Shown one piece after another: positions 18,001-21,000 of a stretch of DNA of 64,000 nucleotides. A program made the position numbers. This DNA is from Microcaecilia unicolor. Taxonomy: Eukaryota. Position 1 is the stretch's first letter, and every line of letters starts with the position of its first letter. The DNA is taken from assembly GCF_901765095.1 (NCBI RefSeq), contig NC_044034.1, positions 62,370,339 through 62,434,338 on the forward strand, given 5' to 3'.

Positions 18001-21000
18001 TGTGCATAAAATTATAATTTTGAAGATTTAAAACAAGCTCTTGAGACTTGCAGGTGACCTCATTGGTTGATGGTTGCCTAAGCCTAGAGCTCCTGGTAAG
18101 GAACCCCTGATCTGCAAGAATCTTGATATCGCAGCCTGATGGAGTATAAAATGAAGGCATCCTATTAATGGCATGCAGATCTGTCATTGCAGACAGAAGG
18201 ATGTGGAAGGGCTATATGGAGTAATGGCTGGAACCTCTGAAGGCACAGCAGCAACAAATCTTGAGTTGGAAATCTCTTCAGAGGTGTGGCATTTAGAGTG
18301 GAAGCAAAAACTTACCAAGGGAAAACTTTGTGAGATACTTTTAGAGCTGCAGCTGGCATTTAAAAAAAGATTGGTAGCAACAGCCCAAGAGCTGACTAGC
18401 CTACTTAATTAACTGAGCTCAGATAGAGCAATGTGAGTTCCCATTTCCTCATGTGACTCCTCGCGTTCCTCCAGCTCATGTTCTGCCAGCATATGGAGGA
18501 GGCAGAATGCAAGCTGGAGGAGCCTGAGGAATCATATCAGAAAGGGAGAAATGTCTTCTTACCTGATAATTTTCTTTCCTTGAATCATTGCAGATGAATC
18601 CAGAAACAAATGGGTTATGACCATTTACCAGCAGATGGAGATAGAGTACAAGTACAAAACTCTGACAGATAGGATGGTAAGCAGCTAGTCAGCCACTATT
18701 TCTCATAAAAATGCATTAGGAAAGAACATGCCAAACAAAACTTCTCCTTCCTCATAGAAAGGAAGAATAATATATGAACAGGAACTTGAAGAAACCTGAA
18801 CCTGTAACAATCCCCAAACAGAAAAAGTGAACACCTAACCCAGAAGGTCGTTGAGGGAGGGTCTCCAGATTTATCTGCTGTGATTCAAGGAAAGAAAATT
18901 ATCAGGCAAGACAAATTTCCCCTTCCTCATCATCAGCAACAAATAAACCCAGAGACAAATGGGATGTAGCAAAGCAGTCCTTATGCTGGGCAGGTGACAA
19001 ACACCAGCAGAAAGTACTGATGCTCCAAAGTATATGCCTCCAAGTACTATAGCAGAACTTGATGTCGAAAAAATGCAAAGATGCAAAATCCACATCACAT
19101 GCCTCCCTGCTAATGAATGGAAGGAACAAAGGCTGATTAATGTGAAAAGATGAGGTGACCTTCAGCAAGAAGGACAGCACAGTTCTGGATTCAGAAAAGG
19201 TAAGGAATGGATCTCTGAAGGATAAGACCTGAATCTAAAATATTCATCTAGCCAAAGTAACCACTACAAGCAAAACAGACTCTAAGGTTTTAAGGTCCTT
19301 GACAGTAGCTTTCTTCAAGAGCTCAAAGGGAGACTTCTAAAGGGCCCTGAGAACCAGTTTAAGATTCCAAACAAGGGAAGGAGCACATAGAGGAGGCTTA
19401 AGAAGACTGACTCCCCCACTAAGAAAATGCACCACATCAGGGTAAGAAGACAAGGAAGAATGGGCCAGATAGCCACAATAACATTCCAAGGCAGCCACTT
19501 GAACCCTTAGAAAGTTGTAGGCCATACCCTTTTCAAAAACGCCAAAATTTGATGTAAAGATTACTGAAACGTGGAAATGGCCCTTTCCCAACAACATGCT
19601 TGAAATACTCTCCATACCCAAGCATATGCAAAAGATGTGGAATGCTTCTTAGCCAGAAGTAAAGTAGTAATCAAATCCTCAAGATATCCTTTTCATCCTT
19701 AGTTGCGACCTCTCAAGATCCAAGCTGTAAGACCAACTAGGGACCGCAGGTGATGACTTGGGCAGCGCAGCTTGCTCCGCACTTACCAGGTCCAGATTGT
19801 GGATCTGGGAACCTGGGAATCACCCGTTAGGCTCAATCAAGCTGTGCAGCCTCAGCCTGCACTGCTAGGAGCTAGGCCAAGCATCAGGAGCAACAGCCTG
19901 AACAACCTACCATCTGCTGGAGGTAGGGAAATACTGAAGTTTTCCAATCAGCACCAGCCCACATACCTGCAACGTCACTGGAATGGAGAAATTATGTATT
20001 ACCTGATAATTTTCATTCCTTTAGGCAACTACACTGTTTTCCACAGGAGTTTTACCAGTGACCTTGCCAGTATTATCTAGTGGTGCTCCCTGGAAATATC
20101 CAGTATACATCTGCCAAAGTAGCAGAAGGTCCCTTTTTGTAACACACCCATGCCCCATCAACCACTGCAGCTAAAATGATAATCAAGCAAACATAACACC
20201 ACAGAGTGGCACTCACTACCCTGCATACTCAAGGATATGGAAATATCAAGGGAACCCGTTTTGCTGTAAATTATAATATGTATAATTTTACTCTTTTTTT
20301 TTTTCTGCATACCCAGATTCCCAGGTCCAAATCTTCTGAAGGCAGGTTGCAGAAAAGTGCAGCTAACTAAAGAAAATTATCAGGTAAGACATCATTTCTC
20401 CTTCCTTAGTGTTTAACTACACTGTTCTGCACAAGTGGGTTGTACCGAAGCAGATTTACTGGGCGCGGGAAGACAACCCATCCCCCATACATGACGGATC
20501 CAATACGTAGTACTTGCCAACTGAATGGAGCGACGATCACATTGCTGCTCTTCAAATCTCTTCAGGAGCCACTGCCCAAACCTCTGCCCAGGAAGCAGCT
20601 TGAGCAGGCCTTGAGGCCCTCAGGCACAAGACGATTCTTGCAATACCCACCTTGATCCACCTTGCAAAGAGACCTTAAAGTCTACCTGGCCCTCCCTAGG
20701 GCAATAAAAAAGAACAAAGAGGTGATATGAAAGATGAAAATGATCCGTCTCCTTCAGGTACTTTAACCACATCCTCTGGACATCCAGCTTGTGGAGTCTC
20801 TGATCCACAGAACAATGGAATTTCCTGATTCACAAAGAAGAAGAAACCACCTTATTGAGAACGGAAGGAACCAGGGTAACAGAAACAGAGTTGTCTGCAA
20901 TAGATACAAGTCCCAAAAAGACAGAGCCTACAGATCAGAAACATTTCAAGCCAAGATGAAGGCGACCAGAAAAACTGTCTTGAAGTGAGATCTTTAAAGG

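What the first reader, a model, noticed from the sequence alone, without database searches (positions are those of the whole stretch)
18560..18910. Multi-copy ~350-bp foldback family whose 45-bp TIRs carry a consensus 5' splice site (CAGGTAAG) at the outer edge and a polypyrimidine-AG 20 bp inward
Five or more copies lie in this window: 9482-9826, 18560-18910, 20000-20390, 39543-39892, and an expanded copy at 42435-44262 with a partial TIR at 48921-48965. They have TIRs tcTTACCTGATAATTTTCTTTCCTTgaatcattGCAGatgaatcc and similar interiors (..accagcagrtggagata..). The outer motif tcTTACCTG is shared with the outer end of the DIRS-like ITR at 1541 (cgaagatacTTACCTGtagcagg) and with the three long palindromes. 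One partial copy abuts the 3' end of the DIRS fragment at 49000. They may be non-autonomous derivatives of DIRS-like elements, paired ITR ends left after internal deletion. The conserved CTTACCTG would then be a candidate tyrosine-recombinase core or junction site, or a U1-binding element. Because of the TIR symmetry, each copy also presents an exon-like unit (acceptor...donor) on both strands.
Basis: partly seen in the sequence, partly recalled or inferred. Interest (0 to 1): 0.65.

Follow-up and report, generated by a model that had tools for sequence, protein, structure and literature searches.

The report
3' end modules of DIRS retrotransposons
The ~350-bp "foldbacks" are the normal 3' end structure of decayed DIRS1-like tyrosine-recombinase retrotransposons, not an independent foldback or MITE family; the one feature I did not find described is a splice-donor-like motif kept in that end in every amphibian DIRS lineage I examined.

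Summary
The repeats are real: five units plus one partial, none expected by chance. They are not a free-standing foldback or MITE family, and they are not paired ITR ends left by internal deletion.

Each unit is the native 3' terminal module of a DIRS1-like retrotransposon, read on the window's minus strand. The order is rICR, a spacer, the right ITR and a ~30-nt right extension (rE).
- The "45-bp TIR" is the right terminus pairing with its internal complementary copy (rICR).
- Just outside the other arm lies the lICR, a copy of the left-ITR start.
- In three of the five units, and beside the partial one, tyrosine-recombinase gene remnants follow.
- A left ITR of the same family (16934) starts exactly where the extension ends, so it lacks TTACCTG.
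- The DIRS at 1537-5662 shows the whole architecture.
- Intact Rhinatrema, Bufo, Xenopus, Hyperolius and Lithobates elements have the same module right after the YR stop codon.

CAGGTAAG is therefore not the outer edge. It lies in the rE on the sense strand, 12-24 nt inside the true terminus.

G|GT[AG][AT]G is kept in all 13 amphibian right extensions examined but not in a carp element. Its function is untested. Ordinary architecture; modest interest.

The parts
1537..5662 (-). Near-complete DIRS1-like element 'A', the reference anatomy. rE 1537-1565 (sense ...TACCTGCTACAGGTAAGTATCTTCGCTTT). rITR 1566-1735. Spacer 1736-1787. rICR 1788-1847. lICR 1848-1890. YR gene remnants ~2060-3078. RT ~4133-4840. 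gag-like ORF 4782-5288. lITR 5494-5662.
   Evidence: ITR pair 1565-1735 vs 5662-5494 at 78%. Inner foldback 1537-1596 / 1788-1847 at 88%. 1849-1885 copies the lITR start 5658-5622 at 92%. Phage_int_SAM_4 E=5.6e-6 for 2827-3078. RVT_1 for 3641-4570. Homology to Rhinatrema DIRS ORFs.
9465..10423 (-). Copy 1: 3' fragment of a family-B DIRS. rE 9465-9496. rITR from 9497. rICR 9787-9842. lICR ~9840-9890. YR remnants 9879-10423.
   Evidence: IR I15. The flank 9852-9876 copies 9507-9531 at 88% (alignment). YR homology on the minus strand.
14533..16934 (-). 5' fragment of a family-B DIRS. The left ITR starts at 16934 (sense CTTTCCATAGCGTCCCACAGATCAATCC...) and has no extension. gag-like region 15873-15081. 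RT start 14832-14533.
   Evidence: 16862-16917 matches the copy 2 rITR in inverted orientation at 80%. Sequence read. The alignment shows it begins exactly where the rE ends. Protein homology to the upstream ORFs of Rhinatrema DIRS.
18543..19692 (-). Copy 2 (the flagged unit): 3' fragment of a family-B DIRS. rE 18543-18573 (sense AAAATTATCAGGTAAGAAGACATTTCTCCCT). rITR from 18574. rICR ~18860-18924. lICR ~18922-18990. YR remnants 19058-19692.
   Evidence: I16; 18536-18600 vs 18930-18868, and 18914-19029 matches 48925-49042. YR homology, E down to about 1e-38. Alignment.
19985..21235 (-). Copy 3: 3' fragment of a diverged family-B DIRS lying directly next to copy 2's element. rE 19985-20013. rITR from 20014. 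rICR ~20340-20401 (CAGGTAAGACATCATTTCTCC). lICR ~20399-20460. YR remnants 20498-21235.
   Evidence: YR homology. The lICR flank aligns with the inner rITR.
23040..23610 (-). 5' fragment of an A-like DIRS. The left ITR starts ~23610 (sense cCTCTGAGGACAAGCAAGC...) without an extension, followed by a gag-like stretch at 23210-23070.
   Evidence: 1849-1890 matches 23608-23568 at 79%. tblastn of the ORFs at 5240-5416 and 5022-5684. Sequence read.
39528..39892 (-). Copy 4: rE (39528-39556; the motif has decayed to GGTACA), rITR, spacer and rICR. It stops at ...CAGGTAAGACC, with no lICR and no YR beside it.
   Evidence: (I24). No YR hit nearby.
42420..44259 (-). Copy 5: rE 42420-42449, rITR from ~42451, rICR 44222-44259. 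The rICR is cut before CAGGTAAG by a poly-T and another repeat. The spacer is expanded by a ~1.45-kb insert at 42580-44026.
   Evidence: (I20, 95%). The right terminus is 77% identical over 115 nt to the right terminus of the Rhinatrema element in L007.
48912..50357 (-). DIRS 3' fragment without a right ITR. Partial rICR starts at GTAAG (48912-48933). lICR ~48931-48998. YR gene remnants 48998-50357, including the KAHSTRA motif.
   Evidence: The best database relatives are Rhinatrema bivittatum DIRS YR ORFs (E=2.9e-105).

Best explanation
Each ~350-bp unit is the 3'-terminal module of a DIRS1-like (tyrosine-recombinase) retrotransposon whose sense strand is the window's minus strand. In sense order the element reads: gag, RT/RH(/MT), YR, lICR, rICR, a ~200-nt spacer, right ITR, and a ~30-nt right extension (rE).

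The lICR next to the rICR is the reverse complement of the left-ITR start. That explains why the sequence outside one arm repeats the sequence inside the other.

In the accepted Cappello / Poulter-Goodwin model, the ICR acts as an internal splint or template. On it the two ends of the cDNA are restored and joined into a circle junction, and the element's YR integrates that circle without a target-site duplication. The ICR has been shown to be essential in Dictyostelium DIRS-1.

The window copies are old, decayed fragments that happen to retain this 3' module. CAGGTAAG sits inside the rE on the sense strand, at the symmetry centre of the end-to-end junction palindrome and 12-24 nt inside the true right terminus. 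Its complement CTTACCTG sits in the rICR.

**Shown here:** the anatomy, the adjacency to YR genes, and homology to intact amphibian DIRS elements. **Inferred from the literature:** the splint, circle and integration steps. **Unknown:** what the conserved GGTAAG does.
For: 1. The DIRS at 1537-5662 shows the full layout. Its ITRs are 1565-1735 and 5662-5494. The right ITR has 29 extra outer nt. The internal segment 1788-1890 reads as the predicted joint of right end and left start.
2. Minus-strand YR homologs lie just right of copy 1 (9879-10423), copy 2 (19058-19692), copy 3 (20498-21235) and the 48912 partial copy (to 50357). YR identity rests on Phage_int_SAM_4 at its gathering score, the HSTR motif, and hits named 'Tyr recombinase domain-containing protein'.
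3. The flank outside the right arm aligns with the inside of the left arm in copies 1-3 and with the 48931 fragment.
4. The family's left ITR at 16934 and the Rhinatrema left ITR in L002 begin at CTTTCC, exactly where the ~30-nt extension of the right termini and rICRs ends.
5. In seven amphibian elements a 55-67-nt inverted repeat (94.7-100% identical) begins 44-97 nt after the annotated YR stop. Loci: L001, L003, L005, L006, L007, L010, L011; the arms are 176-368 nt apart. L008 has the same repeat, starting just inside the annotated ORF end. L007's right terminus is 77% identical to copy 5 at the DNA level.
6. Dimensions match published vertebrate DIRS1-like elements: rE 26-34 nt and ICR halves ~40 and ~60 nt in Anolis and Xenopus (PMC3266345). 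Xenopus elements have the order gag, RT/RH/MT, YR, with ITRs and an ICR (PMC9210276).
7. No TSD flanks any unit (sequence read).
8. The ICR is required for DIRS-1 retrotransposition (PMC7192593).
Against: - Copies 4 and 5 have no recognisable YR remnant beside them, so a few solo modules exist whose origin (deletion, breakage or insertion) is not resolved.
- No full-length family-B element is present in the window. Its left and right ends are seen only on separate fragments.
- Pfam support for the YR catalytic domain is below threshold, and a profile search of PDB sequences found nothing.
- The mechanism is carried over from Dictyostelium and from sequence logic. It has not been tested in vertebrates.
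Confidence: 0.9

Rival explanations
1. The units are a non-autonomous DIRS-derived family: left and right ITR ends brought together by internal deletion, then mobilised in trans by DIRS proteins.
For: - Copies 4 and 5 have no coding remnant next to them.
- Several units are about the same size.
- DIRS-1 RT can act in trans on a truncated construct (PMC7192593).
Against: - The arms are rTer and rICR, not lITR and rITR. The true lITR lacks the extension that both arms carry.
- Intact elements already contain the same foldback.
- Three of the five units keep YR remnants.
- The spacers are not conserved between copies.
- No unit has a left ITR joined to it.
Confidence: 0.05
2. An ordinary MITE or foldback family mobilised by a DDE transposase, unrelated to DIRS.
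For: - The size (~350 bp) and the 45-60-bp terminal inverted repeats.
- A DDE_1 ORF exists in the window at 36267-36995.
Against: - No TSD is present at any copy.
- One flank is always the lICR followed by the YR gene.
- The arms are homologous to the termini of YR-encoding elements in Rhinatrema.
- The inverted repeats near the DDE_1 ORF (37935-38195 / 39122-39388) are a different sequence.
Confidence: 0.02
3. An added layer on top of the DIRS reading. The conserved G|GTRAGT in the right extension is a working U1 snRNP-binding or 5' splice site on the DIRS sense transcript. It could suppress premature cleavage and polyadenylation in the right terminus, splice read-through transcripts, or back-splice to the Y-tract-CAG at the left-ITR start.
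For: - All 13 amphibian right extensions examined carry a match of at least 7/9 to CAG|GTAAGT with G|GT. It is always on the sense strand, 12-24 nt from the terminus.
- The variants are GTAAGT, GTAAGA, GTAAGG, GTGAGT and GTATGT.
- The background rate gives about a 2-3% chance per window of that size (sequences).
- The surrounding rE sequence does not align between caecilians and frogs.
Against: - No transcript evidence was available.
- In the RNA the motif would be base-paired with the rICR over ~55-65 nt, which should hinder U1 access.
- The carp element lacks it.
- The lineages are related, so the 13 cases are not independent.
- The motif is also the centre of the junction palindrome, so a role as a DNA or cDNA structural or protein-binding site explains its conservation equally well.
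- Nothing on this was found in the literature held.
Confidence: 0.1

Closest known systems
Vertebrate DIRS1-like retrotransposons (e.g. XtDIRS2/3 and DIRS-37_XT of Xenopus tropicalis, AcDIRS1/2 of Anolis)
   Same: - In Xenopus DIRS-like elements, the gene order gag, RT/RH/MT, YR and the non-coding layout of ITRs plus a two-part ICR (lICR and rICR) complementary to the two ends (PMC9210276).
- In Anolis and Xenopus elements, an rE of ~26-34 nt, ICR halves of ~40 and ~60 nt, T-rich terminal trinucleotides and no TSD (PMC3266345).
- All of these are seen here.
   Different: - These are different, undescribed-looking caecilian-type families. YR identity to Xenopus proteins is about 40-44% and to Rhinatrema proteins 51-57%.
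- The spacer between rICR and rITR is long (~200 nt), so the 3' module looks like a stand-alone 350-bp foldback.
- The window copies are decayed fragments.
DIRS-1 of Dictyostelium discoideum
   Same: - Inverted terminal repeats.
- An ICR complementary to both termini, which is essential for retrotransposition.
- Insertion into other DIRS copies, producing clusters (PMC7192593).
   Different: - In DIRS-1 the YR ORF lies upstream of, and overlapping, the pol ORF, and the repeats are ~300-bp LTR-like.
- I did not inspect DIRS-1 for a GGTAAG motif.
- The mechanism has been tested only there.
MITEs and foldback elements
   Same: Small size, terminal inverted repeats and multiple copies.
   Different: No TSD, asymmetric flanks, physical linkage to YR genes, and arms that are the terminus-ICR pair of a retrotransposon.
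Ngaro and PAT-like YR retrotransposons
   Same: They encode RT and YR, and their terminal repeats have an internal copy near the 3' end.
   Different: They have split direct repeats (A1 ... B1 A2 B2). Here the repeats are inverted and there is an ICR (PMC9210276).

Membership tests
DIRS1-like retrotransposons | Encodes a tyrosine recombinase | tested here: met
   - Phage_int_SAM_4 E=5.6e-6, 27.1 bits against a cut-off of 27, for 2827-3078.
- KAHSTRA motif in the 49108-49470 ORF.
- Homologs named 'Tyr recombinase domain-containing protein'.
- The catalytic-domain Pfam hit is only sub-threshold, and there was no PDB sequence hit.
DIRS1-like retrotransposons | Encodes reverse transcriptase / RNase H upstream of the YR | tested here: met
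   - Weak RVT_1 hit at 3641-4570.
- 4133-4840 and 14533-14832 are homologous to the RVT_1-bearing ORFs of Rhinatrema DIRS.
DIRS1-like retrotransposons | Methyltransferase-like domain after RT/RH | not tested
   No dedicated search was made. The region 3080-3939 is homologous to the corresponding Rhinatrema ORFs, but the domain was not identified.
DIRS1-like retrotransposons | Inverted terminal repeats | tested here: met
   - Element A: 1565-1735 vs 5662-5494 at 78%.
- Family B: the left ITR at 16934 vs the right ITRs of copies 2, 4 and 5.
- L002: 6427-6537 vs 14362-14471 at 95%.
DIRS1-like retrotransposons | ICR just upstream of the right ITR, made of an lICR (complement of the left-end start) and an rICR (complement of the right end) | tested here: met
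   - Element A: 1788-1890.
- Copies 1-3 and the 48912 fragment.
- Intact amphibian elements.
DIRS1-like retrotransposons | Right extension present at the right end and in the rICR, but absent from the left ITR | tested here: met
   In alignment A1, five right termini and five rICRs carry GGAGAAAT...TCTTACCTGATAATTTT. The two left ITRs start at CTTTCC.
DIRS1-like retrotransposons | No target-site duplication | tested here: met
   The flanks of element A (cacat|...|cccag on the sense strand) and of the units show no duplication. Only one element has both ends available.
DIRS1-like retrotransposons | Replication through ICR-dependent end restoration and a circular intermediate, integrated by the YR | not testable with these tools
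   Literature only (PMC7192593; PMC3266345).
MITE (DDE-mobilised) | Target-site duplication flanking the TIRs | tested here: not met
   The flanks of all five units were read and none shows a duplication.
MITE (DDE-mobilised) | TIRs shared with an autonomous DDE transposon | tested here: not met
   The only DDE ORF (36267-36995) lies near unrelated inverted repeats. The arms instead match the termini of YR retroelements.
Ngaro / PAT-like | Split direct repeats (A1 ... B1 A2 B2) | tested here: not met
   The repeats are inverted, not direct.

The most novel reading that the evidence does not exclude
The invariant G|GTRAGT in the right extension of amphibian DIRS elements may be a working 5' splice site or U1-binding site. 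The left ITR starts I reconstructed (caecilian families A and B, two Rhinatrema types, Bufo, Xenopus, Hyperolius, Lithobates, Dendrobates) all have a CAG within about 30 nt of the left end, mostly preceded by a pyrimidine-rich tract. Taken together, the whole element resembles one giant exon.

Read-through transcripts could then be back-spliced into a circular RNA template. The ICR would store exactly the short 'intronic' end pieces lost in that step, which would give a concrete reason why DIRS elements need an ICR. A weaker version is that U1 bound at the rE prevents premature polyadenylation inside the right terminus.

My evidence shows only the conserved motifs. It does not exclude either version.
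Probability: 0.1. Interest if true: 0.7.

Novelty: new member of a known kind. Interest (0 to 1): 0.25.

Why it matters
**For annotation.** In DIRS-rich genomes such as caecilians and other amphibians, the rICR-spacer-rITR-rE module is easily mistaken for a MITE or foldback family. Recognising it avoids spurious repeat families and false 'non-autonomous DIRS' calls. It also gives a simple rule for orienting and delimiting decayed DIRS copies: the extension is present at the right end only, and the lICR lies beside the rICR.

**For mechanism.** The splice-donor-like hexamer is conserved at the centre of the end-junction palindrome. It offers a small, testable handle on the replication of vertebrate DIRS elements, which is still poorly understood and for which no functional data exist.

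Tried and rejected
- **MITE reading.** Rejected: no TSDs, asymmetric flanks, linkage to YR genes.
- **Paired ITR ends after deletion.** Rejected: both arms carry the right extension, which the left ITR lacks.
- **An rE hairpin with GGTAAG in the loop, as a self-priming structure** (suggested by the 3' hairpin that Poulter and Goodwin noted, cited in PMC7192593). RNA folds of 10 right ends gave z-scores from -3.4 to +1.2, mostly within about one SD of shuffles, and GGUAAG is sometimes inside the stem. Inconclusive, so not used.
- **CTTACCTG as the YR crossover site.** Not supported. The ends of the integrated copies, and so the 3-bp junction, lie 12-24 nt away from it.
- **The long palindromes as members of the same family.** Rejected: they carry only 7/8 motif matches and share no homology with each other or with the units.
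- **Profile search of the YR alignment against PDB sequences.** No hit.
- **Pfam on intact Rhinatrema and Xenopus YR proteins.** Only sub-threshold hits.
- **Literature searches linking DIRS termini to splicing, U1 or circular RNA.** Nothing relevant found.
- **Identifying the source species.** The window shares only 65-88% identity with the four Rhinatrema loci. The source is probably a caecilian, but this is not established.
- **Exonisation hinted at by the NCBI names** 'hnRNP A1 isoform X1' and 'protein-glutamate O-methyltransferase isoform X1'. Both are single-exon DIRS ORFs, so they give no evidence of splicing.
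Full report
**1. The observation**

The 25-nt TIR core is found five times with up to 3 mismatches, against 0 in 100 shuffles. 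Looser matching recovers both arms of all five units: 9483/9824, 18561/18907, 20001/20385, 39543/39887 and 42438/44264. The inverted-repeat scan gives arms of 34-56 nt at 84-95%.

Three details need correcting.
- The inverted repeat does not stop at CTTACCTG. It continues 13-17 nt outward to a conserved GGAGAAAT.
- Only the terminal ~85 nt and the opposite ~60 nt are conserved between copies. The spacer is not.
- The long palindromes share only 7 of 8 motif positions and are unrelated to each other.

**2. The clue: the units are not symmetric**

In copies 1-3 the sequence just outside the right arm repeats the sequence just inside the left arm. There, 1848-1890 copies the start of an inverted repeat whose partner is at 5662-5494.

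That element (1537-5662, genes on the minus strand) has the following parts:
- a 169-nt left ITR;
- gag-like, RT and YR remnants;
- an internal segment (1788-1890) that reads as [quoted passage not shown];
- a right ITR with 29 extra outer nucleotides, TACCTGCTACAGGTAAGTATCTTCGCTTT.

This is the published anatomy of DIRS1-like elements: lITR, ORFs, lICR/rICR meeting at a 3-bp circular junction, rITR, and a right extension (rE) that is complementary only to the rICR (PMC3266345). Xenopus DIRS-like elements have the gene order gag, RT/RH/MT, YR (PMC9210276).

**3. The flagged family has the same anatomy**

- tblastn with the YR-region ORFs of element A, of the 49-50 kb fragment and of Rhinatrema DIRS elements finds minus-strand homologs immediately to the right of four units. 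These are copy 1 (9879-10423), copy 2 (19058-19692), copy 3 (20498-21235) and the partial copy at 48912 (to 50357).
- A left ITR of the family lies at 16934, followed on the minus strand by gag and RT homology at 15873-14533. It begins at CTTTCC, exactly where the extension of the right termini ends.
The adjoining flank is the lICR.
- Copy 4 stops right after CAGGTAAGACC and has no lICR or YR.
- Copy 5 has a 1.45-kb insertion in its spacer, and its rICR is cut by another repeat.

**4. Related elements elsewhere**

A pseudo-protein rebuilt from the 49-50 kb YR remnants finds its best relatives in the caecilian Rhinatrema bivittatum (51-56% identity). Next come Xenopus, Ranitomeya, Bufo and other frog proteins, several of them named "Tyr recombinase domain-containing".

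I fetched eleven loci.
- In the Rhinatrema loci L001, L007 and L008, a 57-65-nt inverted repeat (95-100% identical) begins 59 nt (L001) or 52 nt (L007) after the annotated YR stop codon. In L008 it begins just inside the annotated ORF end. It is centred on CTTACCT and ends ...GAAAATTAGCAGGTAAGGAAT....
- L002 shows a left ITR without the extension and a right ITR with it.
- L007's right terminus is 77% identical to copy 5 over 115 nt.
- Bufo, Xenopus, Hyperolius, Lithobates and Dendrobates have the same module after the YR gene.

The module is therefore a native part of intact elements, not a deletion product.

**5. How it works**

*From the literature; not tested here.* The ICR serves as an internal template or splint. 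On it the cDNA ends are completed and joined into a circle junction, and the YR then integrates the circle without a TSD. Deleting the ICR abolishes DIRS-1 retrotransposition in Dictyostelium (PMC7192593).

*Shown here.* The sequence relationships that this model requires are present, and no TSDs were found.

**6. The motif**

CAGGTAAG lies in the rE on the sense strand, 12-24 nt inside the right terminus. It sits at the symmetry centre of the palindrome that the joined ends would form, and its complement lies in the rICR.

All 13 amphibian right extensions examined keep a match of at least 7/9 to CAG|GTAAGT with G|GT:
- CAGGTAAGT, CAGGTAAGA, CAGGTAAGG and AAGGTAAGA in caecilian lineages;
- CCGGTAAGT, ACGGTAAGT, CCGGTGAGT and CAGGTATGT in frogs.

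The rest of the rE is unalignable between the two groups. Such a match is expected in about 2-3% of windows of this size. The carp element has GGTTACATACGTAACC instead.

The variants are all acceptable splice-donor forms, so a U1 or splice role is possible. Two points count against it. The motif would be buried in the rICR:rTer duplex, and the lineages are not independent. A short hairpin in the rE is not significantly better than shuffled sequence. I found nothing on this in the papers held. Its function remains open.

**7. Verdict**

This is a cluster of decayed DIRS1-like retrotransposon fragments, probably in a caecilian genome. All nine fragments are in one orientation. The flagged foldbacks are their standard ICR/right-terminus modules.

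The "paired ITR ends / non-autonomous foldback family" reading and the "outer edge" placement of the motif are wrong. The architecture is already known and the families are new members of it. The conserved donor-like hexamer is a minor observation that may be new.

Noticed in passing
window 42580-44026: The 'expansion' of copy 5 looks like two tandem Helitron-like inserts. Each begins TCAAACATATAAATG after an A. Each ends with a hairpin (GCCCGTTTTAATGGGC) followed by AACGGCTAG|T or CTAT|T. They carry a G-rich ~40-nt minisatellite (42850-43440) and the 43739-43960 palindrome. This is inferred from the termini only.
   Followed up: partly
window 1537-50357 (nine DIRS fragments): All nine DIRS fragments have their sense strand on the window's minus strand. 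So do the ERV and the DDE_1 ORF. With at least 7 independent insertions, the chance of this is about 1-2%. It could reflect antisense bias inside a plus-strand host intron, or orientation-preserving insertion of DIRS into DIRS.
   Followed up: no
window 39885-39895 and 48910-48935: Copy 4's rICR stops at ...CAGGTAAGACC, and the 48912 fragment starts GTAAGGAGAACC... followed by lICR and YR. These are complementary halves of one ICR, in the same orientation and 9 kb apart, both broken at the palindrome centre. They may be one element split by a large insertion or rearrangement.
   Followed up: partly
window 46732-47033 and 48188-48723: Long GC-rich palindromes (arms 69-262 nt, 88-93%). Donor-like GAGGTAAG or AAGGTAAG lies about 35-65 nt inside each outer end, facing outward on both strands, and the 48188-48723 palindrome has ACGTCA-like centres. 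They are not homologous to each other or to the DIRS units. Their nature is unexplained.
   Followed up: partly
window 27713-35724: A young gammaretrovirus-like ERV on the minus strand. Its 696-bp LTRs are 99.86% identical (27713-28408 / 35029-35724). It has long gag (Gag_p30, Gag_MA) and protease-RT-RNase H ORFs.
   Followed up: no
window 36267-36995, 37935-39388 and 52120-54180: A DDE_1 (pogo/Tigger-type) transposase ORF. A separate element with ~260-bp terminal inverted repeats (37935-38195 / 39122-39388) and a central palindrome (38663-38858). A weak hAT-like (DUF4371) ORF next to a complex nested palindromic repeat at 52120-52591.
   Followed up: no
L007 3001-4425; L008 3001-4587 (Rhinatrema bivittatum): Single-exon DIRS YR ORFs are named 'heterogeneous nuclear ribonucleoprotein A1 isoform X1' and 'protein-glutamate O-methyltransferase isoform X1' in the NCBI annotation. 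They are probably transposon ORFs mislabelled after the surrounding host gene.
   Followed up: partly
Left-ITR starts: window 16934 and 5662; L002 6407. Left-ITR starts inferred from the lICRs of L003, L005, L006, L010 and L011: Every amphibian left ITR I reconstructed has a CAG within about 30 nt of the terminus, and most begin with a pyrimidine-rich stretch before it. An example is CTTTCCTTTAGTCACAG|. Mirrored by the donor-like motif in the rE, this makes the element look like one large exon whose 'intronic' end pieces are stored in the ICR. Significance was not tested.
   Followed up: no
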